24,000 nucleotides of DNA from Caldibacillus debilis DSM 16016 (lineage in GTDB: Bacteria; Bacillota; Bacilli; Bacillales; Caldibacillaceae), in assembly GCF_000383875.1 (NCBI RefSeq), contig NZ_KB912916.1:19955-43954 (forward strand), written 5' to 3'. Both the position numbers and the translations under genes were made by a program. The notes beneath the pieces were generated by a model. The model made no database searches. It was not told where the DNA came from and saw nothing but the letters and a program-made list of their open reading frames with translations. This document shows, piece by piece, positions 2,242 through 13,636 of this stretch. Positions within the stretch are counted from its first letter, which is position 1. Every line of letters begins with the position of its first letter.

Positions 2242-2367
2242 AAACGAACGCCCAATTTCAGAATAATCGAAACCGCCTGTCGACGCAAGTCGGCAGGCAC
2301 CTGCGAAACGAAACAGGAACCGCCCGATTTTCCCTGCCGTCCCGAATTTCGAGATAACCAAGCCAAG

Positions 2368-2437
2368 AGAAGGCGCCCGTCTTTCCAATCGGCGTTTGGT
2401 GACACTTATGGAGGATCCGGTGCCTTCTCTTTTTTTC
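2368..2437 (+). terminator. Possible intrinsic terminator of aceBA (long-loop hairpin plus T7)
   Basis: AGAAGGCGCC (2368-2377) pairs with GGTGCCTTCT (2419-2428, one G-U pair), followed by C plus seven T (2430-2436). The 41-nt loop is atypical. Confidence 0.4.
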
Positions 2438-2645
2438 GTTGATCTGGAGAAACCGCAGAAAATTTTTCCGGCAGGACGGTGTATTCGGCCGGAAAGCCGG
2501 TGCCTCCGGAATGCCCGCGTGGTGTTGCATCTGTCTTTTCTGTCCTATCCGTGGGCGCCAGGACGCTCGAAAAGCGACATTTTTCCGAAGGGCGGGGACA
2601 CGCATGCGATGTTCGTCCCTGCTCCTCAAGAAATTCCATTCTGTC

Positions 2646-3034
2646 TCAGTCGCCGCGCCCCGGCACGGGAGATCTGAACGGATTGGCCGTTTTCGTCCCC
2701 TGATGAAAAAACATGCGCCATTCGCCGTCCTTGAATTTCCAAATGGAACTTCTCAACGTGTATTCCTTTTTTCTTCATTGAACAAAATATACGCGACAAG
2801 GACGACGTCATCGGCCAGCAGATGGACTTCAAACCGGACGATTTTCGTTTTCACCGGCCCAAGTCCGTTCTCTCCCAAGAAATCCGCTTTATACCTAACC
2901 CTTCCGGGACTGCCGAACTCGAAAAAATCATCTGAAAGCAGCCTGTCGATTTTTTCCGGCGAAGTCCGGACTTCCGGTATCAAAAGGTTTTCCAAAGCGA
3001 AGATACGGGCTTTCCATGCCTCAAGGTTTTCCAT
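2646..3034 (-). pseudogene. DUF4440 / NTF2-like (SnoaL-fold) protein gene interrupted by a 1-nt frameshift
   Basis: ORF 2753..3034 (MENLEAWKARIFALENLLIPEVRTSPEKIDRLLSDDFFEFGSPG...) ends at ...EEKRNTR*. A shifted frame continues with TLRSSIWKFKDGEWRMFFHQGTKT... to a TGA at 2646-2648. The junction is a 6-nt homopolymer at 2767-2772, and adding one A restores ...EEKKEYTLRSSIWKF... Confidence 0.7.
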
Positions 3035-3134
3035 TCCAATCCTCCCGCCAATTTTTCAAAATTATAACAAAATCTTGCGTTCACGTAGGATAAATCGGAA
3101 GCGAAAAAATTGCTTGCAATTTTGAAAGAAAACG

Positions 3135-3149
3135 TTGAAAACGCTGTCT
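3135..3149 (+). promoter_or_regulatory. Catabolite-responsive element (cre, CcpA site) overlapping the -35 box
   Basis: TTGAAAACGCTGTCT satisfies every fixed position of the published cre consensus WTGNAANCGNWNNCW. Confidence 0.55.
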
Positions 3150-3163
3150 GAAACCGTTATAAT
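3135..3163 (+). promoter_or_regulatory. Sigma-A type promoter of the nine-gene operon
   Basis: TTGAAA (3135-3140), a 17-nt spacer, then TATAAT (3158-3163), in an AT-rich region 58 nt upstream of the first ATG. Confidence 0.7.
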
Positions 3164-3165
3164 TA

Positions 3166-3189
3166 CAATATACAATATAATGTATATTG
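3166..3189. promoter_or_regulatory. Perfect 8-bp inverted repeat at the predicted transcription start; candidate operator
   Basis: CAATATAC (3166-3173), spacer aatataat, then GTATATTG (3182-3189), immediately downstream of the -10 box. Confidence 0.4.
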
Positions 3190-3220
3190 AAAATTAATAA
3201 AGTGATGGGAAGAATCGACG

Positions 3221-4303
3221 ATGTTTGAAGCCAATGACCGATTGCGTTCGGCCATAAGGGAATTGGGGCGGTCCGTCGTCTCGGTGAATCCAAAAATCGC
3301 TGAAGAATTAAAAAGCAAAGATCAACCTTTATTCTATTTCGGAGTCAAAGACACAGACCAGATCCCCGACACCGTCGTGGATAAACTGAGGAGGCACAAA
3401 AATTTTATTTGGCTGACGGTAGACAAAATGGCGGACAGGGGCCGGGCCATCGACACGGATTTGATCAATCCGCTGACGTACCGGGTAATGACCGGTTCGA
3501 CCAGCGGCGGACCCATCAATATATTAAAGGGCATCACGGATTTTGCCGTCGGCACCGACGGCGGGGGTTCCGTTTTGGCGCCCGCCATGAGCTGCCAGCT
3601 GCCCGCGGTTATCGGTGCGGGTTTGGGATTATTTGTCAAAAAGAGAAAAGTTTCCGCCGACGGGATTGAATTTTCAGGAAGCATCGGCGTCATCGCAAAG
3701 ACGGTTAAGACGCTGACGATTGTGATGGAATATTTGACAGGCAAACCGCTGACCGGTTCGGAAAAAAAGAAATGGAAAATCGTGATCCCGAAAAAAGGTT
3801 CGCTCATTTGTCCGGACGGGACGGATATGAACGAAAAAGTCCTTTCTTATCTTTCAAAAATCAATGAAAAGGAATGGGTTTTCGAGGAAGCGGAAATGAC
3901 CGGGACCGATGATCGGAAAACAGGAATTCAGGTGATTAAAAAATATTTATATGAAAATGATGCGGACTTGATCGTTACCTGTGAAGGACCGGTCGATGTT
4001 TTCGGGTACGGCGAAACATTGCCGAAGTTTTTTGGAAAGACCGGAGAAAAAATCACGCAAAATCACGGGAAATATTTGCTGAGGGCCGCGAACATGTGCC
4101 AAACAACGGCGATTGCCGTTCCCGTGGACCAATTGGCCAGCGGTTTGCTGATCATCGCGAAAAAAGGGGAAGAACAGGCGCGGATTGCCTTCGATTTCGC
4201 ATTAAAAATGGAAAAAATCATCCGGCTGCCTGAAATTTGGCGGAAGCTTTTTCTGTCGGGGAGCGTCAGTCGAGACGGATTCCATTTTCAAGAAGAAAAA
4301 TAA
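3221..4303 (+). CDS. Amidase-signature (AS) family protein, unusually short (360 aa)
   Basis: Motifs FGVKD (candidate catalytic Lys), GSTSGG, and GTDGGGSVLAPA (compare the AS consensus GGSSGG ... GTDxGGSIRxPA). First gene after the promoter. 19-nt gap to the next gene. Confidence 0.7.
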   Translation: MFEANDRLRSAIRELGRSVVSVNPKIAEELKSKDQPLFYFGVKDTDQIPDTVVDKLRRHKNFIWLTVDKMADRGRAIDTDLINPLTYRVMTGSTSGGPINILKGITDFAVGTDGGGSVLAPAMSCQLPAVIGAGLGLFVKKRKVSADGIEFSGSIGVIAKTVKTLTIVMEYLTGKPLTGSEKKKWKIVIPKKGSLICPDGTDMNEKVLSYLSKINEKEWVFEEAEMTGTDDRKTGIQVIKKYLYENDADLIVTCEGPVDVFGYGETLPKFFGKTGEKITQNHGKYLLRAANMCQTTAIAVPVDQLASGLLIIAKKGEEQARIAFDFALKMEKIIRLPEIWRKLFLSGSVSRDGFHFQEEK

Positions 4304-4322
4304 GTGCGGGGAAGGTGGAGCG

Positions 4323-5255
4323 ATGAGCCGAGTTTGGGAAAGCCTCTACTCAAAAAACGGATTGGCGGCCAAGGAAATCGCCAAACAATTAATTTCAATC
4401 GAAGAAGGGGAACGGATTCCGCGAATCCAGGACTTTGAAAAGGATTTTCAGTTCGGGCGCGGCACCATTCAAGGGGCATTGAAAATATTGGAAAATCTGC
4501 GGGCGGTCCGTTTGGAATCCAGGGGCCACTTAGGCACATTCCTGGTGGCAAAGGATTTGGACCTGTTAAAAGAAATCGCCGGAATCGGTTCCATCATGGG
4601 AGCGATGCCCCTGCCGTATTCGTCCTTGTACGAAGGCTTGGCGACGGGGATCCTCGAAGCGTCAGAAAATATGTTGAGCAGGATCGATTTGGCGTACATG
4701 AGAGGGTCGAAACAAAGACTGCACGGGTTGAAGGCCCGTCGGTATGACTTTATCGTATTGTCCCAATTGGCTGCGGAAGAAGAAATCAAAGAAGATGACA
4801 GCTTGCAGATTGCCGTCAATTTCGGCCCGAGAACCTATGTCACGGCCCACCAAATCTTTTTCGCCGATCCTTCGAACGACCGCATGAAAGATGGCATGCG
4901 GGTGGGCATCGATTTTACATCCATCGACCAATCCCGGCTGACGGCGTTGGAATGCGAGAATCTGGATGTCCAATTGGTTCCGATCAATTACATGCAAGTT
5001 TTTGAGATGCTGCAAAAAGGCTCATTGGATGCCGCCGTTTGGAACGTTGACGACACGAGGACAAACAAAGCGTTCAAAAAGGCCGATTTTCGCTCGGAAA
5101 AAGCCAAGAAATTGTCGGAAAAGGCCACATCCGCGGTCATTTTAATCGAAAAGGACCGCTCGGAAGTCCTGGAATATTTATCGAATCTTGACGTTCAAAA
5201 AATTACGCGGATTCAACAAAAAGTAGTGAAAAAAGAGATTATCCCCCATTATTAG
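4323..5255 (+). CDS. YhfZ-like transcriptional regulator (N-terminal GntR-like winged HTH plus YhfZ C-terminal domain)
   Basis: 310 aa. GAAGGTGGAG SD. The N-terminus IPRIQDFEKDFQFGRGTIQGALKILENLRAVRLESRGHLGTFL looks like an HTH. Size matches E. coli YhfZ (~300 aa), and the gene sits with the other yhf homologues. Confidence 0.7.
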   Translation: MSRVWESLYSKNGLAAKEIAKQLISIEEGERIPRIQDFEKDFQFGRGTIQGALKILENLRAVRLESRGHLGTFLVAKDLDLLKEIAGIGSIMGAMPLPYSSLYEGLATGILEASENMLSRIDLAYMRGSKQRLHGLKARRYDFIVLSQLAAEEEIKEDDSLQIAVNFGPRTYVTAHQIFFADPSNDRMKDGMRVGIDFTSIDQSRLTALECENLDVQLVPINYMQVFEMLQKGSLDAAVWNVDDTRTNKAFKKADFRSEKAKKLSEKATSAVILIEKDRSEVLEYLSNLDVQKITRIQQKVVKKEIIPHY

Positions 5256-5312
5256 ACGAAGTGCGAAAAGGTTTTGCTTACGGTTGATACGATACCCATC
5301 ATGAGGTGAAGG

Positions 5313-5750
5313 ATGGTCATGCGATTTCAGGAGCTTACAACCCGGCTGGAATTGTTGCAGGAACAGGGTCTGATCAATGAGAAGGTTTGCCGTGTAACGG
5401 AATCCGTTTTTGAGGAATTAGCCAGATTAGTGAAAAAGGACAGCATCGAGCAGGCGGAAATGGTATTTACCCATTTGCCTTTGGCGTTGATGCGGATCGT
5501 CAACGGGGAAAACATTGATCGGCCGGATCCGTTCATATTGGAAGAAATGAAAAGATCCGAACATTTTCCCGTTGCCGAGACCCTGGTCCATTTTATCGAA
5601 AAGCTGTGGGAAAAGTCTTTGCCCCAAGGGGAAAAAGACTTCCTATATATCCATTTCATCAATTTATTAAATATCAATCAGGGAGGTGATGAACTTGAAG
5701 ATTGTCATCGGGGGACAAGTGGAGAAGAAGGCGATCGAAGAAAAAATTAA
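5313..5750 (+). CDS. PRD-domain-only protein, YhfY-like
   Basis: GAGGTGAAGG SD (an alternative ATG lies at 5319). Helical protein with a conserved His context (FTHLPLALMRI) typical of PRD modules. The last ~18 codons overlap the next gene. Confidence 0.65.
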   Translation: MVMRFQELTTRLELLQEQGLINEKVCRVTESVFEELARLVKKDSIEQAEMVFTHLPLALMRIVNGENIDRPDPFILEEMKRSEHFPVAETLVHFIEKLWEKSLPQGEKDFLYIHFINLLNINQGGDELEDCHRGTSGEEGDRRKN

Positions 5751-6054
5751 AGAAATCGATCCGTCGATTGAGACAGTGATCAAGTCGGATCTGGAAGCCG
5801 CGATGGCGATGAAAACCGGGCAGGCGGACTATTATTTCGGAGCCTGTCATACCGGAGGCGGCGGGGCATTGGCCATGGCGATCGCCTTGATCGGCAGAGA
5901 CAAGTGCGAAACGGTGTCGATGCCCGGGAAAAAACCGAATGAAGAAAAGGTCATCGAAGCGGTAAAAAACGGTAAAAAGGCCTTTGGCTTCACTGCAGAT
6001 CATTTGGATTTGGCGGTGCCTATGCTTATTAAAGCCATAAAAAGCGCGAACTAA
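5695..6054 (+). CDS. DUF2620 protein, YhfU-like
   Basis: The ORF track starts at 5686 (GTG). GGGAGG at 5681-5686 favours the TTG at 5695, giving (M)KIVIGGQ. About 120 aa with the motif YYFGACHTGGGGALAMAIALIG. Confidence 0.7.
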   Translation: MKIVIGGQVEKKAIEEKIKEIDPSIETVIKSDLEAAMAMKTGQADYYFGACHTGGGGALAMAIALIGRDKCETVSMPGKKPNEEKVIEAVKNGKKAFGFTADHLDLAVPMLIKAIKSAN

Positions 6055-6065
6055 GGAGGGGTTGT

Positions 6066-7358
6066 ATGGAAACGTTATTTGTTGTGCTGATTGGAGCGAT
6101 TGCCGCGGTTTTGGCGAACAGAAATATCGCCGTGTTCAATGACGGTCTTCGCCCCATTGTTTCCGAGCATATTGAAGGAAGATTAAAACGAAGGGAATTG
6201 GCTTTGACCGCCTTTGCGATGAGCTTCGGATTGGTGATCGGTTTCGGGATTCCCTTCACTTTAACCGCCAGCATTATTTTAATTCATAGCATTTTGTTAG
6301 GTACGGATATTATCGGGCTGGTCACGCCGAAAAACAAATGGGGAACCCCGGCGGCGGCGTTGATAGGCGGCCTTTACGGCTGGGGGCTGGTCGTCGGCTT
6401 GGAAGGTTTTGTTAAGTTATTTAAACATTTGCCGTTAAACTTCCTGGATCCGCTGGGGCAAGTGGGAACACCCGTAGTGGTGACTTTTATGGCATTTCCG
6501 GCGCTGGCGGTCGCCATGCAGTTCAGCGTTAAAAAAGGAGTCATCACGTTTGTCACGGCTGCCATCGCCAGACAATTGGCGGTTTTCATCAACGAAAGCG
6601 GCGTTTTCAAAATAGGCGGGAACGCAGTTACGTTAAACCAGGAAGGTATTGCATTGATTGTCGGAATGATTTTCCTGTTTGCCTATGCCATGAAGGAAAA
6701 GGCGGATGAAGGTTCCGGCGTGGATTTGGCTTCTGTCTTCAGTGAAAAAGTGATTTCCATTAAAAAGAATGTCGTTTATTTGGTCATCATCGGCGCTTTG
6801 ATTGCCGGCGCCACGAATTTGGTGTTGATGGCCGGAGACCCGATCTCGCTGAACCTGCTTGCGGAAGGGAAAAAGACGGATGCTGGGATTGCGGCGGTTG
6901 CCAGGGCTATCGGGTTTATTCCGCTGATTGCCAGCACGGCGATTGCCACCGGTGTGTATAGCCCGGTAGGTTTTACGTTCATCTTTGTCGTCGGTCTGTT
7001 TTCCCCGAATGTTTGGGTTGCGGTGATCTTGGGCGGACTGGTCATTTTCATAGAAGTCATGCTTTTAAGTGTAGTTGCCCGGTTCCTTGATAAGTATCCG
7101 GGAATCCGAAAATCCGGGGAAAATATCCGCAACGCCATGACGAAATTGCTGGAAGTGGCCTTGCTGATCGGAGGAGCCAATGCTTCCAACATGATTGCAC
7201 CCGGCTTCGGGTTCTTCTTCATCGCAGGATTTTATTTGTTAAACGAAGCGGCCGGACGCCCGATCGTCAGGATGGCTGTCGGTCCTGTCGGAGCGATTGC
7301 GGTCGGAATCATCGCCAACATTCTTGTAGCATTAGGCATCATGTCGGTACCCAAATAA
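6066..7358 (+). CDS. Polytopic membrane protein, YhfT-like (putative permease)
   Basis: 430 aa. AAGGAGGGG SD. Hydrophobic segments are visible throughout. Size and position match E. coli YhfT. Confidence 0.7.
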   Translation: METLFVVLIGAIAAVLANRNIAVFNDGLRPIVSEHIEGRLKRRELALTAFAMSFGLVIGFGIPFTLTASIILIHSILLGTDIIGLVTPKNKWGTPAAALIGGLYGWGLVVGLEGFVKLFKHLPLNFLDPLGQVGTPVVVTFMAFPALAVAMQFSVKKGVITFVTAAIARQLAVFINESGVFKIGGNAVTLNQEGIALIVGMIFLFAYAMKEKADEGSGVDLASVFSEKVISIKKNVVYLVIIGALIAGATNLVLMAGDPISLNLLAEGKKTDAGIAAVARAIGFIPLIASTAIATGVYSPVGFTFIFVVGLFSPNVWVAVILGGLVIFIEVMLLSVVARFLDKYPGIRKSGENIRNAMTKLLEVALLIGGANASNMIAPGFGFFFIAGFYLLNEAAGRPIVRMAVGPVGAIAVGIIANILVALGIMSVPK

Positions 7359-7376
7359 TGGCTGGAGTGATTCATT

Positions 7377-8291
7377 TTGATACAAACGGTCAGAGGAAAG
7401 ATAAAAAAAGAAGAATTAGGTGTTTGTGCGGCCCATGAACATCTGATTATTGATCTATCAAAAATAAAAAAAGATCCGGACACCATTTTGGACAATGAAG
7501 AAGAGGCGGCTGCCGAATTGAAACGGTTTTTTCAAGCCGGCGGCCGCTCCTTGGTCGAATTGACCAATGATGGAATGGGCAGAGATGTTTTGCGGTTAAA
7601 AAAATTAAGTGAGCTTACCAATATTCATATTATCACTTGTACCGGATTCTATAAAGAGCCGTTTATCCCTGAATTTGCAAAAGGGTGGGACCGGGACCGT
7701 TTTGCGCACCATTTTATTACCGAAATAAGGAACGGCGTGAACGGAGTCTTTCCTGGGGTTATCGGGGAAGTGGGAACGAGTTTGAATCAAATCACGCCGT
7801 TGGAAAAAGAACTTTTGCTGGGTGCGGGGCAAGCCGCATTGGAAACGGGGTTGACGGTTTCCACCCATACCACCTTAGGGACGATGGGGATTCGGCAAGT
7901 GGAGCTGCTTTTCGGGCTTGGACTCCCCAAGGAACAAATTGTCATCGGCCATCAGGATTTAAACCCCAATAAGGAAGAAGTTTTAGAGGTGCTGAGTTCC
8001 GGAGTTTATATCGGATTTGACACCATTGGAAAAAACAATTACAGGCCGGATGAAGCAAGAATGGAATTTTTGCTTGACTTTATCGAGAGGGGGTACCATA
8101 AACAAATTCTCCTCTCCTGCGATTTGACCCGGAAATCCCATTGGAAAATGAATGGCGGAATCGGATATGACTATGCTTTGTCTCAATTTATCCCGGCCTT
8201 AAAGGAACGGGGAGTTACGGATGATATCATCGAAGATCTCCTCGTTCACAATCCAGCCAATGCATTTTCCATAAAGGAGCCTGTGTCATGA
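7377..8291 (+). CDS. php: Phosphotriesterase-homology protein (amidohydrolase-superfamily binuclear-metal hydrolase)
   Basis: TTG start with a GGAGTG SD. The N-terminal metal motif AAHEHLIIDLS resembles E. coli Php (LAHEHLHIDLS). 304 aa. Confidence 0.85.
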   Translation: MIQTVRGKIKKEELGVCAAHEHLIIDLSKIKKDPDTILDNEEEAAAELKRFFQAGGRSLVELTNDGMGRDVLRLKKLSELTNIHIITCTGFYKEPFIPEFAKGWDRDRFAHHFITEIRNGVNGVFPGVIGEVGTSLNQITPLEKELLLGAGQAALETGLTVSTHTTLGTMGIRQVELLFGLGLPKEQIVIGHQDLNPNKEEVLEVLSSGVYIGFDTIGKNNYRPDEARMEFLLDFIERGYHKQILLSCDLTRKSHWKMNGGIGYDYALSQFIPALKERGVTDDIIEDLLVHNPANAFSIKEPVS

Positions 8292-9436
8292 CAAACCAAC
8301 CAGCGAAACGCAAATATAGCGAATCCGTTTTGCCGAGTCTGACGCTGGAAGAGGCGCAGCAATTGCAATTCCAATTCGTGGAAAGCATCAGCAGACATTT
8401 TACAGGCGATCAATTTTTGTCGTTGGGAGACCTGGGATTGGGGTCCCGTTATCAAAGACCTGAACAGACGGAAAAAGCGGAACGGGTTTTGGCGGATTTT
8501 TTCGGTGCGGAAGCAGCAGCTCTTGTCCGGGGTGCCGGGACAGGAGCCATCCGCATTCTTTTAAGCGTCCTCTTATCCCCCGGCGATTCCATGTTCATTC
8601 ATAAAGCGCCCGTTTATGCGACGACGAAGGAAACGATCCGGATGTTGGGAATCCGAACGGTGGCCATTGATTTTAACCGTCTCAAGGAAATGGAAAAAGC
8701 CCTCCGGGAGGACGCTGACTGCAAAGTCTTCTACATTCAGCATGCGAGGCAGCAGCCTTCGGATACTTATCATTTACAAACGGTCATTGAAACGGTGAAA
8801 AGGATCCGACCCGACTTGACCGTAGTGGTGGATGACAACTATTGTGTCATGAAAACTTACGGAATCGGGGTTCAGTGCGGCGCTGATTATTCCACTTTTT
8901 CCGGTTTTAAATTGATGGGACCGGAGGGAATCGGCGTCATTTTGGGAAAGAAGGAAAAGATTGATCTCATCCATGCGAGGAATTATTCCGGAGGCGGCCA
9001 GGTGCAGGGCTTTGAAGCGATGGAACTGCTCAGAATGATGACCTTGACGCCGGTTTTGTTTGCCGTACAAAGCAAACAGGTGGAAGAAATTTGCCGCCAG
9101 TTGAATGAAGGGGCGATCGAAGAAGTGGATTGCGCTTATGTCGTCAATGCCCAATCGAAAAACGTTATCGTGGAATTGAAAGAACCGATCGCTCCGGAAG
9201 TGATTAAACAAAGCAACCGTTTCGGGGCGGCAACCCATCCGGTCGGGGCGGAATCGAAGTATGAGATTTTGCCGTTGTTTTACCGGGTTTCCGGCAGTTT
9301 CATCGAGGCCGAACCCCGGCTGAAAGATTACGGGATCCGGATCAATCCGATGAAGTCAGGAGCCGCCACCGTGCTGCGAATTTTAAAAGAGGCGATTCAT
9401 GCCGCCAAAGAATCGGTTCATGCTGCCAAGAAGTGA
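8288..9436 (+). CDS. PLP-dependent enzyme, YhfS-like (fold-type I aminotransferase/lyase-like)
   Basis: ATGA start/stop overlap with php. 382 aa. GAGTGAIRILL and DDNYCV motifs, and FSGFKLMGPEGIG as the candidate PLP-Lys region. Confidence 0.65.
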   Translation: MTNQPAKRKYSESVLPSLTLEEAQQLQFQFVESISRHFTGDQFLSLGDLGLGSRYQRPEQTEKAERVLADFFGAEAAALVRGAGTGAIRILLSVLLSPGDSMFIHKAPVYATTKETIRMLGIRTVAIDFNRLKEMEKALREDADCKVFYIQHARQQPSDTYHLQTVIETVKRIRPDLTVVVDDNYCVMKTYGIGVQCGADYSTFSGFKLMGPEGIGVILGKKEKIDLIHARNYSGGGQVQGFEAMELLRMMTLTPVLFAVQSKQVEEICRQLNEGAIEEVDCAYVVNAQSKNVIVELKEPIAPEVIKQSNRFGAATHPVGAESKYEILPLFYRVSGSFIEAEPRLKDYGIRINPMKSGAATVLRILKEAIHAAKESVHAAKK

Positions 9437-9463
9437 ATTTTCGCATACAGGAGGACTGCTTCC

Positions 9464-10624
9464 ATGTTTTTGGATGTGACGGTGAGGAGGAATCCCGAGC
9501 TGATTAAAACGGGCGTGAGGCTACATCAATCGGGCAAGATTCCTCCCAACACGTATGTCATCGATTTGGATATGGTAAAAGAAAACGTGCGAAAAATTGC
9601 CAAAACGGCCGCCGACTGCAATATTCATTTGTATTTCATGTCCAAACAGCTCGGCAGAATCCCCGAACTGGCGAAAATAGTTGCAGAAAACGGGATAGAA
9701 AAAGCGGTTGCGGTCGATTTTGACGAGGGAAAAAGATTGGCGGATCACGGTGTTCGAATCGGACATATCGGCCACCTCGTTCAACCCGGCAAACATCAAT
9801 GGGGAGAAGTGTTGAGCTGGAATCCGGAAGTGGTGACGGTTTTTTCCTACGAACGGGCCGCCCAATTGTCAGCCGCTGCGGAAAAATTGGGGAAAAAACA
9901 AGATATTTTGCTGAAAGTCACCGGTCCCGACAACAAAATTTATGACGGCCAGGAAGGCGGAATTGAACTGGAACAGCTCGCTGATGCCGCCGGCCGGATC
10001 AGCCGGCTGCGCGGGGTTAACATCGTCGGCGTTACCACTTTTCCGACCCTCCGGATGAACGACGATAAAACCGGGATGGTGGGAACGAACAATCTGTATA
10101 CCCTTTTAGAGGCGAAAAAGATATTGGAAGAGAGAGGGATTCCTGTGAAACAGGTGAACGGCCCGAGCGGAACAAGCTGCGAAACCATCCCCTATTTGGC
10201 CGAACACGGAATCACCCACGGCGAACCGGGGCACAGTTTAACCGGCACCACTCCGTTGCATGCCTATAAAGATCTGCCAGAAAAACCGGCGATGATCTAT
10301 GTCACGGAAGTTTCCCACAAATTTAGAAACCATTATTTTGTCATCGCCGGGGGATATTACGGACGCTCCAGAATGAAAGGCTGCCTGGTCGGGCATGAGG
10401 AAGATTCCATCCTCAACCGGTATGTGAAAGCCTATCCCACCCGCCCGGAATCGATCGATTACTACGGAAAAATCGAAGCTCCTGCCGATTTTCCGGTGGA
10501 AATCGGGGATACCGCCATATTCGCTTTCCGGAGCCAGATCTTCGTCACCCGCGCCCATGTCGCGTTAGTGGAAGGCATTCAATCGGGGAACCCGAAGGTG
10601 ATTCATTTTGAAAGGAAGTGGTAA
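9464..10624 (+). CDS. Alanine-racemase-N-terminal-domain (fold-type III PLP) protein, YhfX-like
   Basis: AGGAGGA SD. 386 aa. YFMSKQLGR is a candidate PLP-lysine motif. Sits within the yhf set. Confidence 0.7.
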   Translation: MFLDVTVRRNPELIKTGVRLHQSGKIPPNTYVIDLDMVKENVRKIAKTAADCNIHLYFMSKQLGRIPELAKIVAENGIEKAVAVDFDEGKRLADHGVRIGHIGHLVQPGKHQWGEVLSWNPEVVTVFSYERAAQLSAAAEKLGKKQDILLKVTGPDNKIYDGQEGGIELEQLADAAGRISRLRGVNIVGVTTFPTLRMNDDKTGMVGTNNLYTLLEAKKILEERGIPVKQVNGPSGTSCETIPYLAEHGITHGEPGHSLTGTTPLHAYKDLPEKPAMIYVTEVSHKFRNHYFVIAGGYYGRSRMKGCLVGHEEDSILNRYVKAYPTRPESIDYYGKIEAPADFPVEIGDTAIFAFRSQIFVTRAHVALVEGIQSGNPKVIHFERKW

Positions 10625-10628
10625 CATC

Positions 10629-11834
10629 ATGGGCAGAATGATGCTGCTGGTGATCGACAGTTTCGGGATCGGGGCGATGGACGATTGCCGGGACTATGTG
10701 CCTTCCGACTGCCGCGCCAACACGTATAAGCATATTCGGGAAGCGAAAAAGGACGAGCTGAAAATTCCCACGTTGTATCGGCTCGGACTGGGTGCCCTTG
10801 TCGACGGAAAATCCGCACCGGAAACGAGCGCCTACGGGTATTCCAAATTGGCCCATCACGGGGCCGATACGTATTTGGGCCATCAGGAAATCGCGGGAAG
10901 CTGTCCGAAAAAATCGAACAAACGATTAATGAAGGAAGTGCACGGGCAAATCAAACAAGCGTTGGAAGCGCACGGCTATGAGGTCGCCTACCCTTTCAGC
11001 CATTGCCGGGTGTTGCTGGTGAACGGCGCGGCGGTGGTGGCGGATAATCTCGAATCGTCCCTCGGCAATATCATCAATGTAACGGCCGATTTAAAGAAAA
11101 TGACCTTCGATGAATTGAAAAAGATCGGCCGAATCGTCAGGGAAAATGTCGATACCTCAAGGGTCATCGCGCTGGGCGGTCCCTATACTTCCATCGAGCG
11201 CATCCTGTCCTGCGTAAAAGAAAAACATAAAGATCAATGGGGCGTGGATACACCGAAGGCGGGCGTCTACGGAAAGGGCTATATGGTTTACCATATGGGT
11301 TACGGCGTCGAAATCGACAAACAATTCCCCATGATCGCCGCAAAACACGGATTGAAAGTTTACCGCCTCGGCAAAACGGCAGATGTCCTGCACGGCACGG
11401 GTCCTGCCGAACCGATTGTCAATACGACGGAACTTTTGGAAAGATTTTCGGAGCTTTATCGAAAGGAAGAAGGAAACGCCTCCTTTCTGGTCAATATTCA
11501 GGAAACCGATTTGGCGGGGCATGCCGAAAATGTCGATTGGTATTGCCGGTTGTTAAACGAAACGGATCAATGGCTGCAGGATTTTATTCCGCAAATGCGC
11601 GAAGAGGACATATTGATCATCATGGCCGATCACGGCAACGACCCGACGATCGGGCATTCGAACCATACGCGGGAGTATGTTCCCATTTTCATCGTCGGGA
11701 AAAAAGTGAAACCCGTCTATATCGGCATGCGGGAAACGATGGCTGACGTCGGCGCCACCTTATGCGATTTTTACGGGCTGCCGAAAACGAAGGAAGGGGA
11801 AAGCTTTTTGGATTTGATTCTCGACCGAAATTAA
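10629..11834 (+). CDS. Phosphopentomutase-like metalloenzyme (alkaline-phosphatase superfamily mutase), YhfW-like
   Basis: The ORF track starts at 10608 (TTG). The ATG at 10629 follows AAAGGAAGTGG and lies 4 nt after the upstream stop. Motifs LLVIDSFGIG, ETDLAGHAENV and ADHGNDPT..HSNHTREYVPIF resemble DeoB. Confidence 0.8.
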   Translation: MGRMMLLVIDSFGIGAMDDCRDYVPSDCRANTYKHIREAKKDELKIPTLYRLGLGALVDGKSAPETSAYGYSKLAHHGADTYLGHQEIAGSCPKKSNKRLMKEVHGQIKQALEAHGYEVAYPFSHCRVLLVNGAAVVADNLESSLGNIINVTADLKKMTFDELKKIGRIVRENVDTSRVIALGGPYTSIERILSCVKEKHKDQWGVDTPKAGVYGKGYMVYHMGYGVEIDKQFPMIAAKHGLKVYRLGKTADVLHGTGPAEPIVNTTELLERFSELYRKEEGNASFLVNIQETDLAGHAENVDWYCRLLNETDQWLQDFIPQMREEDILIIMADHGNDPTIGHSNHTREYVPIFIVGKKVKPVYIGMRETMADVGATLCDFYGLPKTKEGESFLDLILDRN

Positions 11835-11898
11835 AAGAACTTTCCTGACCGGCTGAATGCCCCAAAGGAAAATAAGATGAATGCGAAAAAAGCGGCTC

Positions 11899-11950
11899 AC
11901 CGGTTCGGATGGCGGGGCATGCCTTTGGCAACCGAACCGGTCTCTTTTTT
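11899..11950 (+). terminator. Intrinsic terminator ending the nine-gene operon
   Basis: ACCGGTTCGG (11899-11908) pairs perfectly with CCGAACCGGT (11932-11941), followed by CTCTTTTTT. Confidence 0.75.
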
Positions 11951-12156
11951 AGGCTTGGCTGGGCGGATCCCTCCCGGCGGCAATATGGCCATGAAAGAGG
12001 CGGCAGGCCGGAACCGGAGATGGGTTTTCCGATGACCCGCATCAAAATTTTTCCGGATGGCCTTTAATAAAAAGAATGAATGTCCGGCATCCTTTTTTGC
12101 ATCGGAGGTCGAGGTTTCCTATCAAGGGTAGAATGTTCGACATTTTTGTACAACGT

Positions 12157-12474
12157 TCAATAAAAAGTTCCGCTTGTCAGATACTTGAGTAAAACGTTCC
12201 ACATGGGGTTTGGTTTTCCCGGCGGATCGCCCAACATTTGTGTCGGATCGTTCCATTTCATAAAAAAGTCGTCCGACACCGCATCGGACGGTTCGTCATT
12301 ATCAACAATCGATCCATCATTTCGACCTCTCCGTTCATCACGAAAAAAAATTTGACCGTTATCAAAGAAAAAATATCCATCATCCATGAAAAAACGTCCA
12401 TCACAGCTGGAGAAATGTCCATCATTCGACATCCGCTGCGACCCGGCCGGCCCCGAACGAGAAAGCGGCGGCAT
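12157..12474 (-). CDS. Hypothetical small protein with degenerate heptad repeats (coding status uncertain)
   Basis: 105 aa ORF (a shorter start gives MSNDGHFSS...). Heptads NDGHFSS/CDGRFFM/DDGYFFF/DNGQIFF/RDERRGR/NDGSIVD. No convincing SD or promoter found. Confidence 0.3.
   Translation of the reverse strand: MPPLSRSGPAGSQRMSNDGHFSSCDGRFFMDDGYFFFDNGQIFFRDERRGRNDGSIVDNDEPSDAVSDDFFMKWNDPTQMLGDPPGKPNPMWNVLLKYLTSGTFY
12310..12435. repeat. Six tandem degenerate 21-nt repeats
   Basis: Units start at 12310, 12331, 12352, 12373, 12394 and 12415. Five contain TCCATCAT/TTCATCAC/TCCATCAC-type cores, and the third is more diverged (CCGTTATCA). Confidence 0.7.
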
Positions 12475-12522
12475 CCTGCCGTTCCCGATTTGAACGTTTC
12501 CATCGACGAGCCCTTGAACGTG

Positions 12523-12549
12523 AAAACGGCGGCATCCTGCCGCCTTTTT
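12523..12549. terminator. Bidirectional terminator-like hairpin (A-tract, stem, T-tract)
   Basis: AAAAC GGCGGCA tcc TGCCGCC TTTTT. A near-identical copy of the core (GAAAGCGGCGGCATCCTGCCG) lies at 12461-12481. Confidence 0.5.
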
Positions 12550-12587
12550 GCATGCGGGGGCGCATAATTATTCGAAATTTTGTCAAA

Positions 12588-12617
12588 TTGAAACAGCGCA
12601 AGCGAAGCGTTTACAAT
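12588..12617 (+). promoter_or_regulatory. Sigma-A type promoter upstream of arginase
   Basis: TTGAAA (12588-12593), an 18-nt spacer, then TACAAT (12612-12617). Confidence 0.5.
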
Positions 12618-12636
12618 AGGCGTGGGAGGGAACAGC

Positions 12637-13533
12637 ATGGAAAAGAAAATCGCCATCGTCGGGATGCCGATGAGTTACGGCCAGCCCCATCCCGGCGTCG
12701 CTCTCGGTCCGGATGCCGTCCGCCACGCCGGTTTGACGGAAAGATTGCGGCAGCTCGGCCTTGCCCCGGAGGACATGGGGAATATGGAAATCGGTACGGG
12801 GGAAAGAACCGTAGACACGGAGACGGGAATGAAAAATCTGCATCAGGTGGCTGAAGCCTGTGAACAATTGGCCGCCCAAGTGGACCACCTCTTCGGGCAA
12901 AATTTTTTCCCGCTCGTCCTTGGCGGCGACCACAGCATGGCCATCGGAACGATCGCAGGAGCGGCTAAACATTTCCGGAATCCGGGCATCCTATGGATTG
13001 ACGCCCACGGGGATTTGAATACCCCGGAGACTTCCCCTTCGGGAAATATTCACGGGATGCCTTTGGCCGCCAGTTTGGGGCTGGGGGCGGAGCCGCTGAT
13101 AAATCTGTACGGTTCCGCGCCGAAAATCCGCTTTGAAAACATCGTTTTAATCGGCATCCGGGACTTGGATGAGGGAGAAAAAAGGCTGATCCGGGAGAGA
13201 AAGATCAAAGCCTATACGATGCATGAGATTGACCGGGCCGGAATGAAACGGGTGATGGAAGAGGCGATCGCCTACTTGCGGGAAAGGGCGGACGGGGTCC
13301 ATTTATCCTTCGATCTCGATTCCTTGGATCCCAGTGAAGCCCCGGGGGTCGGAACGCCCGTGAAAGGCGGACTGACTTTTCGGGAAGCCCGTTTGGCGAT
13401 GGAAATGCTGGGCGAATCCGGCTTGATCGCCTCCTGCGAATTCGTCGAAGTCAATCCCCTTTTGGACACGAAAAATCAAACGGCCGGCCGGGCGGTTGAT
13501 TTGATCGCGGCCTTGTTCGGACATATGCGGTAA
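12637..13533 (+). CDS. rocF: Arginase
   Basis: The ATG at 12637 follows GGGAGGG (the ORF track's GTG at 12622 is within the SD). Mn-binding motifs LGGDHSMAIG, DAHGDLNT and SFDLDSLDP. Confidence 0.9.
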   Translation: MEKKIAIVGMPMSYGQPHPGVALGPDAVRHAGLTERLRQLGLAPEDMGNMEIGTGERTVDTETGMKNLHQVAEACEQLAAQVDHLFGQNFFPLVLGGDHSMAIGTIAGAAKHFRNPGILWIDAHGDLNTPETSPSGNIHGMPLAASLGLGAEPLINLYGSAPKIRFENIVLIGIRDLDEGEKRLIRERKIKAYTMHEIDRAGMKRVMEEAIAYLRERADGVHLSFDLDSLDPSEAPGVGTPVKGGLTFREARLAMEMLGESGLIASCEFVEVNPLLDTKNQTAGRAVDLIAALFGHMR

Positions 13534-13604
13534 AAATCTAAACGGAACCCTGCGGCAAAATGCCGGGTCCGGTTTTCCAAATAGGGACCGGCTTTCTCCA
13601 AAAG

Positions 13605-13636
13605 GAACCTGCTTTCTGCGGAAGGCAGGTTCTTTT
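13605..13636 (+). terminator. Intrinsic terminator after arginase
   Basis: GAACCTGC (13605-13612) pairs with GCAGGTTC (13625-13632), followed by TTTT. Confidence 0.65.

What the first reader, a model, noticed from the sequence alone, without database searches (positions are those of the whole stretch)
3135..11950. Nine-gene operon joining an amidase-like protein to a full YhfZ/YhfY/YhfU/YhfT/Php/YhfS/YhfX/YhfW set: a conserved module with no known substrate
Seen in sequence: nine plus-strand genes with gaps of about 60 nt or less or overlapping ends, all between one promoter (3135-3163) and one terminator (11899-11950). Established knowledge: E. coli K-12 carries yhfS-yhfT-yhfU-php(yhfV)-yhfW-yhfX-yhfY-yhfZ next to the fructoselysine frl (yhfM-R) genes. 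None of these eight has an assigned substrate, although Php has a solved binuclear-metal structure. All eight homologues recur here in a different order (Z,Y,U,T,php,S,X,W), which argues for functional coupling rather than shared ancestry of the locus. An extra AS-family amidase sits first. Inference: the enzyme set is an amide hydrolase, a PTE-family hydrolase, fold-type I and fold-type III PLP enzymes, and a DeoB-like phosphomutase, alongside a permease and two regulators. This suggests inducible breakdown of a compound with amino-acid and (phospho)sugar parts, such as a glycated or D-amino-acid conjugate. The substrate cannot be read from the sequence.
Basis: partly seen in the sequence, partly recalled or inferred. 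Interest (0 to 1): 0.8.

Follow-up and report, generated by a model that had tools for sequence, protein, structure and literature searches.

The report
Amidase-linked yhf/php catabolic operon
This is the Caldibacillus debilis copy of a widespread operon of unknown substrate, also present in E. coli K-12 as yhfZ to yhfS, here with an added amidase; comparison with 85 related loci suggests it breaks down an amide-linked amino-sugar phosphate.

Summary
Nine co-directional genes (3221-11834) lie between one strong promoter (3135-3163) and one hairpin terminator (11899-11950). Gaps are at most 57 nt, or the genes overlap. HMM and PDB searches confirm every call: a compact amidase-signature (AS) amidase, then YhfZ, YhfY, YhfU, YhfT, Php, YhfS, YhfX and YhfW. 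The host is Caldibacillus debilis.

The module is not rare. YhfT relatives occur in at least 484 species genomes, and the window's order without the amidase is the commonest Bacillota order.

The amidase is a recurring optional member: 28 of 85 loci, at four different positions.

New findings:
- A palindrome, ATATAC-N8-GTATAT, abuts the -10 box. It recurs upstream of yhfZ, yhfY and the amidase gene across Bacillota, so this is one regulon, probably repressed by YhfZ.
- YhfU (DUF2620) has an RpiB/LacAB sugar-phosphate-isomerase fold with the Cys-x-Thr loop. It does not look like a PTS IIB protein.
- Php keeps the residues that bind phosphate in the phospho-sugar lactonase Lmo2620.
- Optional in-operon partners elsewhere are NagB, a PBP4B/AmiE-like secreted hydrolase, a HisJ-type phosphatase and a GlcD-like oxidase.

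Best reading: inducible breakdown of an amide-linked amino-sugar phosphate, possibly derived from peptidoglycan. The substrate remains unproven and no publication assigns one.

The parts
3135..3163 (+). Sigma-A-type promoter: -35 TTGAAA (3135-3140), 17-nt spacer, -10 TATAAT (3158-3163). A cre-like sequence, TTGAAAACGCTGTCT, overlaps the -35 at 3135-3149.
   Evidence: 11 of 12 positions match, the best site in 2200-12700; the -10 followed by the operator is conserved in related loci; the cre consensus matches only here in the window, but 0.74 matches are expected by chance, so this is weak.
3163..3192 (.). Operator-like palindrome. The core ATATAC-N8-GTATAT lies at 3168-3187, starts 5 nt after the -10 and covers the likely transcription start. 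It is the proposed YhfZ binding site.
   Evidence: unique in the window, 0.01 expected by chance; 77 sites in 1.73 Mb of related loci against 3.65 in shuffles, and 65 of them lie within 160 nt upstream of yhfZ, yhfY or the amidase gene.
3221..4303 (+). Compact (360 aa) cytoplasmic amidase of the amidase-signature (AS) family. The putative Lys43 / cis-Ser93 / Ser117 triad is intact.
   Evidence: K43, S93 and S117 are invariant in 37 homologues. AF2 model pLDDT 91.6. Foldseek top hit GatA 2df4, E 1e-14, TM 0.70. No hydrophobic N-terminus.
4323..5255 (+). yhfZ: winged-HTH (HTH_41) plus a periplasmic-binding-protein-like ligand domain (YhfZ_C). Probable repressor of the operon.
   Evidence: YhfZ_full 388 bits, cutoff 260. 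PDB 2ozz YhfZ, E 6e-25.
5313..5750 (+). yhfY: stand-alone PRD-domain protein that keeps both phosphorylatable histidines (H54, H114). Its 3' end overlaps yhfU by 56 nt.
   Evidence: LicT PRD, E 6e-6. H54 and H114 are at least 93% conserved in 63 sequences.
5695..6054 (+). yhfU (DUF2620): RpiB/LacAB-fold protein with the invariant loop G-A-C51-x-T53-G-G-G-G.
6066..7358 (+). yhfT: polytopic membrane protein (about 10-12 hydrophobic segments). Presumed substrate permease. It always follows yhfU directly.
   Evidence: E 5e-173. (GRAVY 1.0). (U then T adjacent in all 85 loci); no relative found in Pfam or the PDB.
7377..8291 (+). php: binuclear-metal amidohydrolase of the PTE family. Metal ligands H20, H22, E131, H164, H192 and D249 are present. 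An anion site is formed by K219, R252 and H255.
   Evidence: E. coli PHP 4lef/1bf6, E 2e-65; Lmo2620 3pnz, E 1e-40..
8288..9436 (+). yhfS: fold-type I PLP enzyme (Lys208 in the motif S-x-F-K; Asp182).
   Evidence: PDB 4j8l YhfS, E 1e-106..
9464..10624 (+). yhfX: fold-type III PLP enzyme with an alanine-racemase-like barrel (Lys61) and the YhfX C-terminal domain.
   Evidence: PDB 4kbx YhfX, E 6e-86..
10629..11834 (+). yhfW: phosphopentomutase-like enzyme of the alkaline-phosphatase superfamily. It has a Thr/Ser81 nucleophile and metal ligands D10, D334, H335 and H346.
   Evidence: PRK12383 495 bits, cutoff 254. B. cereus PPM 3m8w, E 9e-28..
11899..11950 (+). Intrinsic terminator: a 10-bp G+C-rich stem (CCGGUUCGG / CCGAACCGG) with a structured loop, followed by CUCUUUUUU.
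   Evidence: sequence.: -28.4 kcal/mol, z -2.5, and 3 of 200 shuffles fold as well.

Best explanation
This is a single-promoter, repressor-controlled catabolic operon of Caldibacillus debilis. It is the Bacillota form of the E. coli yhfZ-to-yhfS/php cluster, extended by a cytoplasmic AS-family amidase.

Proposed mechanism:
1. Without inducer, YhfZ (winged HTH plus a small-molecule-binding domain) sits on the palindrome ATATAC-N8-GTATAT that abuts the -10 box, and blocks initiation.
2. The PRD protein YhfY ties the system to the phosphorylation state of the PTS.
3. YhfT imports the compound. YhfT works together with YhfU, an RpiB/LacAB-fold protein with a Cys-x-Thr loop.
4. The pathway then handles phosphorylated, nitrogen-bearing sugar-type intermediates.
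   - The amidase removes an amide-linked substituent inside the cell.
   - Php hydrolyses an ester, lactone, lactam or N-acyl bond next to a phosphate.
   - YhfW moves or removes the phosphate.
   - YhfU may isomerise the sugar phosphate.
   - The PLP enzymes YhfX and YhfS act on the amino-bearing carbon, by epimerisation followed by elimination or transamination.
5. The products enter central metabolism. In some relatives this goes through glucosamine-6-phosphate and NagB.

The most likely natural source is an amino-sugar conjugate, possibly a peptidoglycan fragment.

What is shown: gene content, the conserved operator, catalytic residues, predicted folds and accessory-gene patterns. What is inferred: every biochemical step, and the substrate.
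For: Operon structure.

Regulation: the operator is unique in the window. It occurs 77 times against 3.65 in shuffles across the related loci, and 65 of the 77 sites lie upstream of yhfZ, yhfY or the amidase gene. It also precedes accessory genes: the serine hydrolase in L025 and L029, and the GlcD-like oxidase in L011-L013.

Amidase: it is active-looking and physically linked to the cluster. K43, S93 and S117 are invariant and the fold is AS. All five loci found starting from the amidase lie in a yhf context. It occurs in 28 of 85 loci found starting from YhfT, at four different positions.

Phosphorylated or anionic substrate:
- Php K219, R252 and H255 align with the Lmo2620 phosphate binders K242, R275 and Y278, and are invariant in 84 sequences.
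- YhfW keeps the phosphopentomutase nucleophile and metal ligands.
- A HisJ-type phosphatase appears in 5 of the 11 loci that lack YhfW, but in only 2 of the 74 that have it (p = 3e-4).
- YhfU has an RpiB/LacAB fold (TM up to 0.75), and its C51/T53 align with RpiB C66/T68.

Amino-sugar link: a true nagB (above the TIGR00502 cutoff) lies inside or at the end of the operon in 11 loci.

Amide and peptidoglycan link: a secreted PBP4B/YfeW-like serine hydrolase lies in-operon in 16 loci, and 15 of these lack the amidase.

PLP enzymes: their lysines are intact.

PTS link: both YhfY histidines are conserved.
Against: - No experiment exists for any member of this operon.
- No kinase, EIIA or other source of the phosphate is encoded in the core.
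- YhfT is called a transporter only from its hydrophobicity, and it has no detectable relatives of known function.
- The accessory genes that point to amino sugars or peptidoglycan occur in a minority of loci: nagB in 11 of 85 and the serine hydrolase in 16 of 85. They are absent from this window and from E. coli.
- The association statistics ignore shared ancestry between loci.
- The sequence-level similarity of YhfU to RpiB is weak (hhalign probability 5%). YhfU also lacks RpiB's Asp/His pair and its C-terminal Arg helix, so isomerase activity is not assured.
- That YhfZ binds the palindrome is inferred from position and conservation only.
Confidence: 0.55

Rival explanations
1. Glycation-product (Amadori or Heyns compound) catabolism. 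In this reading the operon degrades a sugar-amino-acid adduct related to fructoselysine.
For: In E. coli K-12 the cluster lies directly next to frlABCDR. The enzyme set combines amine chemistry with sugar-phosphate chemistry.
Against: None of the 85 Bacillota, Fusobacteria or Vibrio loci shows frl-type genes (deglycase, kinase) as a recurrent neighbour. An Amadori compound has no amide bond, so the amidase and the PBP4B-like hydrolase have no role. Adjacency in a single lineage is weak evidence.
Confidence: 0.1
2. Catabolism of D-amino acids or of peptides containing D-amino acids, with no sugar involved. The amidase or the PBP4B-like peptidase releases a D-amino acid. YhfX racemises it and YhfS transaminates or eliminates it.
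For: YhfX has an alanine-racemase barrel and weakly matches ornithine racemase. PBP4B-type enzymes are DD-peptidases. The B. thuringiensis locus has ATP-grasp ligase-like neighbours.
Against: This reading leaves Php's phosphate site, the phosphopentomutase-like YhfW, the RpiB-fold YhfU, the in-operon nagB and the HisJ-type phosphatase without a role.
Confidence: 0.12
3. YhfT, YhfU and YhfY form a cryptic PTS-type group-translocation system, with YhfT as an EIIC-like component, YhfU as a phospho-Cys carrier and YhfY as a PRD sensor. This system would itself phosphorylate the substrate on entry. It is a variant of the best explanation that answers where the phosphate comes from.
For: - YhfU has an invariant Cys in a glycine-rich loop at the N-terminus of a helix.
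- U and T are always adjacent, and they are much more conserved (72-87% identity) than the enzymes (40-75%).
- YhfY keeps both PRD histidines.
- No kinase is encoded in the core.
- In Vibrio halioticoli a complete Lac/Chb-type PTS (IIB, IIC, IIA) lies directly upstream.
Against: The predicted YhfU fold matches RpiB/LacAB (TM 0.6-0.75), not PTS IIB (rank 42, TM 0.42). Its Cys sits after strand 3, as in RpiB, and not after strand 1, as in IIB. No EIIA is encoded. YhfT has no detectable similarity to any EIIC family.
Confidence: 0.2
4. An anabolic or salvage pathway rather than a catabolic one. For example, it could recycle an amino sugar into a nucleotide-sugar precursor, with YhfW making the 1-phosphate.
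For: A 6-phosphate to 1-phosphate mutase is typical of salvage routes into nucleotide sugars. The window lies beside glmM and glmS.
Against: - No nucleotidyltransferase is present.
- Two PLP enzymes and nagB point to removal of nitrogen.
- A HisJ-type phosphatase can replace YhfW.
- The architecture (repressor, permease, PRD protein, cre-like site) is typical of catabolic operons.
Confidence: 0.08

Closest known systems
E. coli K-12 yhfZ-yhfY-yhfX-yhfW-php-yhfU-yhfT-yhfS cluster (b3383-b3376)
   Same: All eight protein families are present and co-directional. The window proteins match the solved E. coli structures PHP 1bf6/4lef, YhfS 4j8l and YhfX 4kbx, and the solved YhfZ structure 2ozz (organism not given by the search). 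Neither cluster has an assigned function.
   Different: Protein identity is only 32-50%. The gene order differs. E. coli has no amidase, and its upstream region lacks the ATATAC-N8-GTATAT operator. The window's Php falls below the NCBIfam equivalog cutoff for E. coli Php (249 bits against 486). E. coli's frl neighbours are absent here.
Phospho-sugar lactonases Lmo2620/Bh0225 (PDB 3pnz) and other cog1735 enzymes, including mammalian PTER (N-acetyltaurine hydrolase, PMC11374699)
   Same: They share the PTE-family binuclear-metal barrel (3pnz E 1e-40; PTER 9efa E 2e-25). Two of the four Lmo2620 phosphate-binding residues are kept as K219 and R252. All recognise a small substrate with an anionic group near the bond that is cleaved.
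   Different: Lmo2620 K244 and Y278 are replaced by N221 and H255. The physiological substrate of the Php clade is unknown. From memory (Nemmara et al., Biochemistry 2018, which could not be retrieved), E. coli PHP is reported to hydrolyse phosphorylated glyceryl acetates only slowly.
RpiB/LacAB sugar-phosphate isomerases (for example E. coli RpiB, PDB 2vvr)
   Same: The predicted YhfU fold matches (TM up to 0.75, rmsd 2.6 Å). The Cys-x-Thr-Gly loop aligns with the catalytic C66/T68 of RpiB.
   Different: YhfU is 30 residues shorter. It lacks the Asp9/His10 pair and the C-terminal Arg-rich phosphate-binding helix. It has no Pfam LacAB_rpiB hit. It is always encoded next to a membrane protein.
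Amidase-signature (AS) enzymes: GatA, malonamidase E2, FAAH, allophanate hydrolase
   Same: It has the Gly/Ser-rich signature, the Lys / cis-Ser / Ser triad with the canonical 24-residue Ser-to-Ser spacing, and the AS fold.
   Different: It is only 360 aa, against 412-600 for the others. The Lys-to-cis-Ser spacing is about 50 residues instead of about 75. It scores below the Pfam gathering score. It forms its own subfamily, found so far only in yhf-type clusters.
MurNAc and muropeptide recycling operons (B. subtilis murQ-murR-murP-amiE-nagZ; E. coli murQ-murP-yfeW). Their gene content is given from memory.
   Same: They show the same logic: a secreted AmiE/PBP4B(YfeW)-type serine hydrolase, a transporter that yields a sugar phosphate, and an exit through GlcN-6-P and NagB. 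PBP4B-like and nagB genes are optional members of yhf operons.
   Different: No MurQ etherase, MurP PTS or NagZ is present. The core enzymes (Php, two PLP enzymes, a mutase) have no counterpart in the known pathway. The link rests on accessory genes in a minority of loci, not on this window.

Membership tests
yhf/php conserved cluster (E. coli yhfZ to yhfS type) | Presence of all eight families: YhfZ, YhfY (PRD), YhfU (DUF2620), YhfT, Php (PTE), YhfS, YhfX, YhfW | tested here: met
   Pfam and NCBIfam hits are all far above cutoffs, except that the PRD hit is modest at 36.7 bits against 23. PDB matches to PHP, YhfS, YhfX and YhfZ.
yhf/php conserved cluster (E. coli yhfZ to yhfS type) | Genes contiguous and co-directional as one unit | tested here: met
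   Gaps are at most 57 nt or the genes overlap. One promoter/operator and one terminator.
yhf/php conserved cluster (E. coli yhfZ to yhfS type) | Orthology to the E. coli proteins by the NCBIfam equivalog cutoffs | tested here: inconclusive
   YhfZ_full passes (388 > 260) and YhfW PRK12383 passes (495 > 254). Php PRK09875 does not (249 < 486). There are no equivalog models for YhfT, YhfU, YhfS or YhfX.
Amidase-signature (AS) family | Lys / cis-Ser / Ser catalytic triad within the Gly/Ser-rich signature, with a 24-residue Ser-to-Ser spacing | tested here: met
   K43, S93 and S117 are invariant in 37 homologues. The signature region aligns to GatA and FAAH.
Amidase-signature (AS) family | AS alpha/beta fold | tested here: met
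   AF2 model pLDDT 91.6. All of the top 50 Foldseek PDB hits are AS enzymes, the best being GatA at E 1e-14 and TM 0.70.
Amidase-signature (AS) family | Score above the Pfam PF01425 gathering threshold, and typical length of at least 410 aa | tested here: not met
   21 bits against 27, with only residues 88-175 matched, and a length of 360 aa. It is therefore a divergent, compact subfamily rather than a typical member.
Amidase-signature (AS) family | Amide-hydrolysing activity | not testable with these tools
   Needs an enzyme assay.
RpiB/LacAB sugar-phosphate isomerase superfamily (for YhfU) | Five-stranded parallel alpha/beta fold with the catalytic Cys-x-Thr loop after strand 3 | tested here: met
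   AF2 pLDDT 96. Foldseek top hits are RpiB/LacB, TM 0.6-0.75. C51 and T53 are invariant and align with RpiB C66 and T68.
RpiB/LacAB sugar-phosphate isomerase superfamily (for YhfU) | Sequence-profile membership (Pfam LacAB_rpiB) and the remaining active-site residues (Asp9/His10, His99/Asn100, C-terminal Arg residues) | tested here: not met
   No Pfam hit even at E <= 10. hhalign covers only 27 columns, with probability 5%. YhfU starts G-G-Q where RpiB has D-H, and it is 30 aa shorter.
PTS enzyme II (YhfU as IIB, YhfT as IIC) | IIB fold with the phosphorylatable Cys after strand 1; IIC homology | tested here: not met
   PTS IIB ranks only 42nd at TM 0.42. There is no alignment to ChbB. YhfT has no EIIC hit in Pfam or the PDB.
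PRD-containing PTS-responsive regulators (for YhfY) | PRD fold with two conserved phosphorylatable histidines | tested here: met
   PF00874, E 5e-9. LicT PRD 1tlv, E 6e-6. H54 and H114 are conserved. There is no RNA- or DNA-binding domain, so it is not an antiterminator itself.
Operator-controlled repressor system (YhfZ and its palindrome) | HTH regulator encoded in the cluster, plus a conserved palindrome overlapping the promoters of the regulon | tested here: met
   Actual binding cannot be tested here.

The most novel reading that the evidence does not exclude
The yhf/php module, with its optional amidase, could be an undescribed catabolic route for a peptidoglycan-derived amino sugar. Candidates are muramic acid, muramic delta-lactam from spore cortex, or a MurNAc-peptide. 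The route would be as follows:
1. The amide or lactam is opened, either by the cytoplasmic AS amidase and Php or, in other species, outside the cell by an AmiE/PBP4B-like hydrolase.
2. The two PLP enzymes remove the 3-O-lactyl group or the amino group by elimination chemistry on the free 2-amino sugar phosphate.
3. YhfU and YhfW isomerise the sugar phosphate and shift its phosphate.
4. The products leave as GlcN-6-P (via NagB) and D-lactate (via the GlcD-like oxidase).

Uptake would use a new transporter type: YhfT paired with an RpiB-fold subunit.
Probability: 0.18. Interest if true: 0.75.

Novelty: new variant of a known kind. Interest (0 to 1): 0.5.

Why it matters
The yhfZ-to-yhfS/php cluster is one of the larger blocks of E. 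coli K-12 genes that still lack a function, even though four of its proteins have crystal structures. It occurs in hundreds of species across Bacillota, Proteobacteria, Fusobacteria and Synergistetes.

This window does not solve it, but the comparison narrows the question to testable points:
- a defined operator for reporter and binding assays;
- a ligand-binding repressor to screen against candidate inducers;
- an amidase and a PBP4B-like hydrolase that mark an amide bond in the natural substrate;
- nagB, a HisJ-type phosphatase and a GlcD-like oxidase that mark likely products;
- a fold assignment for DUF2620.

The thermophilic C. debilis proteins should also be convenient for biochemistry.

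If the peptidoglycan or amino-sugar reading is right, the result would be a new cell-wall-recycling or scavenging pathway and a new transporter architecture.

Tried and rejected
- Megablast of the operon against all complete E. coli genomes and against PLSDB plasmids found nothing. The window is not enterobacterial or plasmid DNA.
- A scan of genome contigs with the single amidase protein found no relative. The amidase family was reached instead through the search for homologous proteins.
- Literature searches on the gene names, DUF2620, PF10797, PF10941, PF14503, SFCGS/DUF431x and 'phosphotriesterase homology protein' returned no functional study.
- The Raushel-group paper on E. coli PHP could not be retrieved by DOI or PMID. 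It is cited from memory only.
- I tested and rejected the idea that YhfU is a PTS IIB protein.
- The YhfT profile found nothing in the PDB, and Pfam showed no second family, so its transporter class stays open.
- The strict cre consensus (WTGNAANCGNWNNCW) sits on the -35 in this window but accompanies only 3 of 103 operators in the loci examined (window included). CcpA control is therefore only a weak suggestion.
- The terminator scan did not find the 11899-11950 hairpin. Folding confirmed it.
- The promoter scan overall is not enriched over shuffles.
- I considered that the amidase might be a decayed pseudo-enzyme, because its Pfam score is low. I rejected this because the triad is invariant and the model is confident.

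Full report
WHAT IS THERE

The window is a chromosomal segment of Caldibacillus debilis. Its YhfT and YhfU proteins are 100% identical to C. debilis entries. Two metagenome contigs carry the same operon at 99% identity.

Flanking genes are aceB and aceA upstream. Downstream lie rocF, sigW-rsiW, cdaA-cdaR-glmM, the glmS ribozyme and glmS.

Between them lie nine plus-strand genes: 3221-4303, 4323-5255, 5313-5750, 5695-6054, 6066-7358, 7377-8291, 8288-9436, 9464-10624 and 10629-11834. They are separated by 19, 57, -56, 11, 18, -4, 27 and 4 nt. Eight of the nine have Shine-Dalgarno-like sequences.

The PDB sequence search links four of them directly to the orphan structures solved for this cluster: PHP 1bf6/4lef (E 2e-65), YhfS 4j8l (1e-106), YhfX 4kbx (6e-86) and YhfZ 2ozz (6e-25). 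The E. coli K-12 record shows yhfZ-Y-X-W-php-U-T-S next to frlABCDR, all still 'putative'.

THE AMIDASE

By Pfam the first gene is only a sub-threshold Amidase hit: 21 bits against 27, covering residues 88-175.

It nevertheless has 527 detectable homologues. These form a tight family of about 360 aa in Bacillaceae, Clostridia, Fusobacteria and Synergistaceae.

In an alignment of 37 homologues, K43, S93 and S117 are invariant, within F-G-V-K-D, T-G-S-[TS]-S-G-G and G-T-D-G-G-G-S-V-L-x-P-A. The 24-residue Ser-to-Ser spacing is that of the AS triad. A profile of the family hits GatA, FAAH and other AS enzymes in the PDB.

An AlphaFold model (pLDDT 91.6) matches only AS enzymes, the best being GatA 2df4 at E 1e-14 and TM 0.70. 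The protein has no hydrophobic N-terminus.

It is therefore a compact, probably active, cytoplasmic AS amidase of a distinct subfamily.

HOW COMMON THE MODULE IS

A pattern scan of one genome per GTDB species found YhfT relatives in 484 of the first 600 candidate stretches, and 80 loci were retrieved.

The commonest order is Z,Y,U,T,php,S,X,W, seen in 40 loci. This is the window's order without the amidase.

The amidase occupies four different positions:
- first, as in the window and in Tigheibacillus, Paraliobacillus, Cerasibacillus and Virgibacillus chiguensis;
- between T and php, in Clostridia and Cetobacterium;
- between X and Y, in Neobacillus, Oceanobacillus and Robertmurraya;
- last, in Clostridium sp. 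MB05.

All five loci reached starting from the amidase itself lie in a yhf context. Repeated independent placement beside the same genes is strong evidence for functional coupling. It also shows that the nine-gene form is a recurring variant rather than a peculiarity of this genome.

REGULATION

The promoter TTGAAA-17-TATAAT (3135-3163) is the best match in the region.

Directly after the -10 lies a palindrome: arms 3163-3177 and 3178-3192, with the core ATATAC-N8-GTATAT at 3168-3187. It is unique in the window, where 0.01 matches are expected by chance.

The same motif, in the same place relative to a -10 box, occurs upstream of yhfZ in most Bacillota loci. It occurs again in the yhfZ-yhfY gap, where the structural genes form a second unit, and upstream of the amidase where amidase-Y-U-T is a separate unit, as in Neobacillus.

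Over 1.73 Mb of loci there are 77 sites against 3.65 in shuffles. Of these, 65 lie within 160 nt upstream of yhfZ (38), yhfY (23) or the amidase gene (4). Several of the remaining sites precede accessory genes: the serine hydrolase in L025 and L029, and a GlcD-like FAD oxidase in L011-L013.

The simplest reading is auto-regulated repression by the cluster's own HTH protein, YhfZ. The PBP-like C-terminal domain of YhfZ would bind the inducer.

In this window the Z-Y gap is only 57 nt and has no second operator, so all nine genes depend on the single promoter/operator.

The stretch 11885-11955 folds into a strong hairpin followed by a U-run: -28.4 kcal/mol, z -2.5.

YhfY is a bare PRD domain related to LicT and GlcT and keeps both histidines (H54, H114). 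This implies an input from PTS phosphorylation.

A cre-consensus match overlaps the -35, but it is not statistically compelling and is not conserved in relatives.

CLUES TO THE CHEMISTRY

1. Php. It keeps the binuclear-metal ligands H20, H22, E131, H164, H192 and D249, all invariant in 84 sequences. In the gap-free alignment to the phospho-sugar lactonase Lmo2620 (3pnz), the residues I recall as its phosphate binders (K242, K244, R275, Y278) correspond to K219, N221, R252 and H255. K219, R252 and H255 are invariant in the Php clade and present in E. coli PHP. The mammalian relative PTER hydrolyses N-acetyltaurine, an N-acyl compound with an anionic head group (PMC11374699). Php therefore most likely cleaves an acyl, lactone or lactam bond next to a phosphate.

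2. YhfW. It keeps the phosphopentomutase nucleophile (T/S81 in G-A-D-T-x-x-G-H-x-E) and the metal ligands. In loci that lack YhfW, a HisJ-family PHP-domain phosphatase tends to appear: in 5 of 11 such loci, against 2 of the 74 loci that have YhfW (p = 3e-4, not corrected for phylogeny). This suggests a phosphorylated intermediate whose phosphate must be moved or removed.

3. YhfU (DUF2620). It has an invariant G-A-C51-x-T53-G-G-G-G loop.
   - A family profile gives weak but consistent PDB hits to RpiB/LacAB proteins over exactly this loop.
   - Its AlphaFold model (pLDDT 96) matches RpiB/LacB structures almost exclusively: TM up to 0.75, rmsd 2.6 Å, E 2e-4.
   - hhalign aligns C51/T53 with the catalytic C66/T68 of E. 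coli RpiB.
   - PTS IIB is a poor match: rank 42, TM 0.42, and no alignment to ChbB.
   - YhfU lacks other RpiB active-site residues, so it is RpiB-like in fold and loop but not a demonstrated isomerase.

4. YhfU and YhfT together. They are always adjacent, and they are far more conserved (72-87% identity within Bacillaceae) than the enzymes (40-75%). This suggests that they work as a pair. YhfT is a very hydrophobic protein with 10-12 hydrophobic segments and no detectable relatives of known function.

5. The PLP enzymes. YhfS (K208, D182) and YhfX (K61) keep their cofactor residues.

6. Accessory genes inside or abutting the operon in other species.
   - A true nagB, above the TIGR00502 cutoff, occurs in 11 loci. 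In some it sits between yhfX and the amidase gene or immediately after yhfW.
   - A secreted Beta-lactamase-family serine hydrolase occurs in 16 loci, often 19-41 nt after the last gene. Its best NCBIfam match is PBP4B/YfeW, at 316 bits and below the cutoff. Fifteen of these 16 loci lack the amidase (Fisher p = 0.016, uncorrected).
   - A GlcD-like FAD oxidase lies under the same operator in about five loci.
   - From memory, YfeW is co-transcribed with murQ-murP in E. coli, and its B. subtilis counterpart AmiE is the secreted MurNAc-L-Ala amidase of the murQRP-amiE-nagZ operon. This is a lead, not a test.

MOST LIKELY MECHANISM

The operon is an inducible catabolic system. YhfZ represses it at the palindrome and YhfY adds PTS-dependent control. 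YhfT and YhfU take up the compound.

The pathway then processes phosphorylated amino-sugar-type intermediates. The amidase, or an extracellular PBP4B-like hydrolase in other species, removes an amide-linked group. Php opens an acyl, lactone or lactam bond next to the phosphate. YhfU and YhfW rearrange the sugar phosphate. YhfX and YhfS act at the amino-bearing carbon. Carbon and nitrogen leave through ordinary intermediates, via GlcN-6-P in the species that add nagB.

I put about 0.55 on this general picture, and about 0.2 on a peptidoglycan-derived substrate specifically.

Weak points are the missing source of phosphate (no kinase and no EIIA), the minority status of the informative accessory genes, the lack of phylogenetic correction, and the absence of any experiment.

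RIVAL READINGS

- Amadori-compound catabolism rests only on the E. coli frl adjacency. It gives the amide hydrolases no role.
- A pure D-amino-acid or peptide pathway leaves Php's anion site, YhfW, YhfU, nagB and the phosphatase unexplained.
- A cryptic PTS made of YhfT, YhfU and YhfY would solve the phosphate problem, but it conflicts with the YhfU fold.
- A salvage or anabolic role lacks a nucleotidyltransferase.

COMPARISON WITH WHAT IS KNOWN, AND NOVELTY

The object is a member of the known but uncharacterised yhf/php cluster family. It differs from the E. coli paradigm in four ways: gene order, an added AS amidase of a distinct compact subfamily, a defined operator, and low identity (32-50%).

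No paper in the searchable library treats the cluster functionally.

I rate it a new variant of a known kind. Interest is moderate at 0.5. A specialist would not be surprised that the cluster exists in a Bacillus relative. The comparative results do, however, make a long-standing orphan more testable: the operator, the RpiB-like fold of DUF2620, the phosphate-site conservation in Php, and the pattern of amidase, PBP4B-like hydrolase, nagB and phosphatase accessory genes.

Noticed in passing
window 19910-20082 (+), upstream of glmS 20167-21969: A full-length glmS ribozyme/riboswitch (Rfam RF00234, 127 bits against a gathering score of 37), lying 84 nt upstream of the start of the glmS gene.
   Followed up: yes
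window 12622-21969: The gene order rocF, sigW, rsiW, cdaA, cdaR, glmM, glmS matches the B. subtilis sigW-to-glmS region. From memory, in B. subtilis the MurNAc-recycling operon murQ-murR-murP-amiE-nagZ lies just upstream of sigW, roughly where the yhf operon sits here. This could be coincidence and could not be checked with these collections.
   Followed up: no
related loci L001-L090 compared with window 5695-7358: YhfU and YhfT stay 72-87% identical across Bacillaceae clusters whose enzymes are only 40-50% identical to the window's (for example Neobacillus novalis: T 85%, U 85%, php 40%, W 40%). A membrane protein that evolves much more slowly than its pathway enzymes is unusual and unexplained.
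   Followed up: partly
window 5695-5750: yhfY runs 56 nt into yhfU in another reading frame. This gives YhfY a tail of 20-25 residues (GGDELEDCHRGTSGEEGDRRKN) that homologues of 114-125 aa lack. It is probably read-through after loss of the ancestral stop codon.
   Followed up: partly
window 3135-3149, and the promoter spacers of related loci: A cre-consensus match (TTGAAAACGCTGTCT) overlaps the -35. Relatives carry a conserved TG(T/A)AA(G/A)CG(C/T)TATAAT element that runs into the -10. This element fails the strict cre pattern. It may be a degenerate CcpA site or a second regulator's site.
   Followed up: partly
window 11951-12621: A 670-nt stretch between the operon terminator and rocF has no convincing gene. 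A minus-strand ORF at 12157-12474 (105 aa) has no Pfam hit. A 15-nt direct repeat, CGGCGGCATCCTGCC, occurs at 12467-12481 and 12528-12542. Each copy can form a hairpin, and the second is followed by a T-run (terminator-like site 12528-12544) just before the rocF promoter at 12588-12617. It may be a leader or attenuator for rocF.
   Followed up: no
window 2439-3125 (+) and 2753-3034 (-): The 228-aa plus-strand ORF upstream of the operon has no Pfam hit, yet it was called as a gene on a metagenome contig. The overlapping 93-aa minus-strand ORF matches DUF4440 (E 2e-6) and has a GGGAGGA ribosome-binding site, so it is probably the real gene. It may be truncated.
   Followed up: partly
L009 (Vibrio halioticoli plasmid pIAM14596) 2082-12797: Here a yhf cluster that lacks yhfS (order Z,Y,php,U,T,X,W) is directly preceded by a complete Lac/Chb-type PTS (IIB, IIC, IIA), a DUF7916 protein and a porin. 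This may be a functional link to a disaccharide or amino-sugar PTS.
   Followed up: partly
L006 (Synergistaceae metagenome contig) 4558-11207: A reduced set is present: an 852-aa protein with no Pfam hit, a 124-aa protein, DUF2620, the amidase, a YhfS-like enzyme and a pyrroline-5-carboxylate-reductase-like enzyme. There is no YhfT, Php, YhfX or YhfW. This suggests a smaller core of amidase, YhfU and YhfS that can work in another context.
   Followed up: no
L010 (E. coli) upstream of yhfZ: E. coli lacks the ATATAC-N8-GTATAT operator. It has a different perfect palindrome, TCTTCATT-TT-AATGAAGA, about 30 nt upstream of yhfZ. This may be the enterobacterial YhfZ operator.
   Followed up: no
window 30-2241: The glyoxylate-shunt genes aceB (malate synthase, truncated at the window edge) and aceA (isocitrate lyase) lie immediately upstream.
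   Followed up: yes
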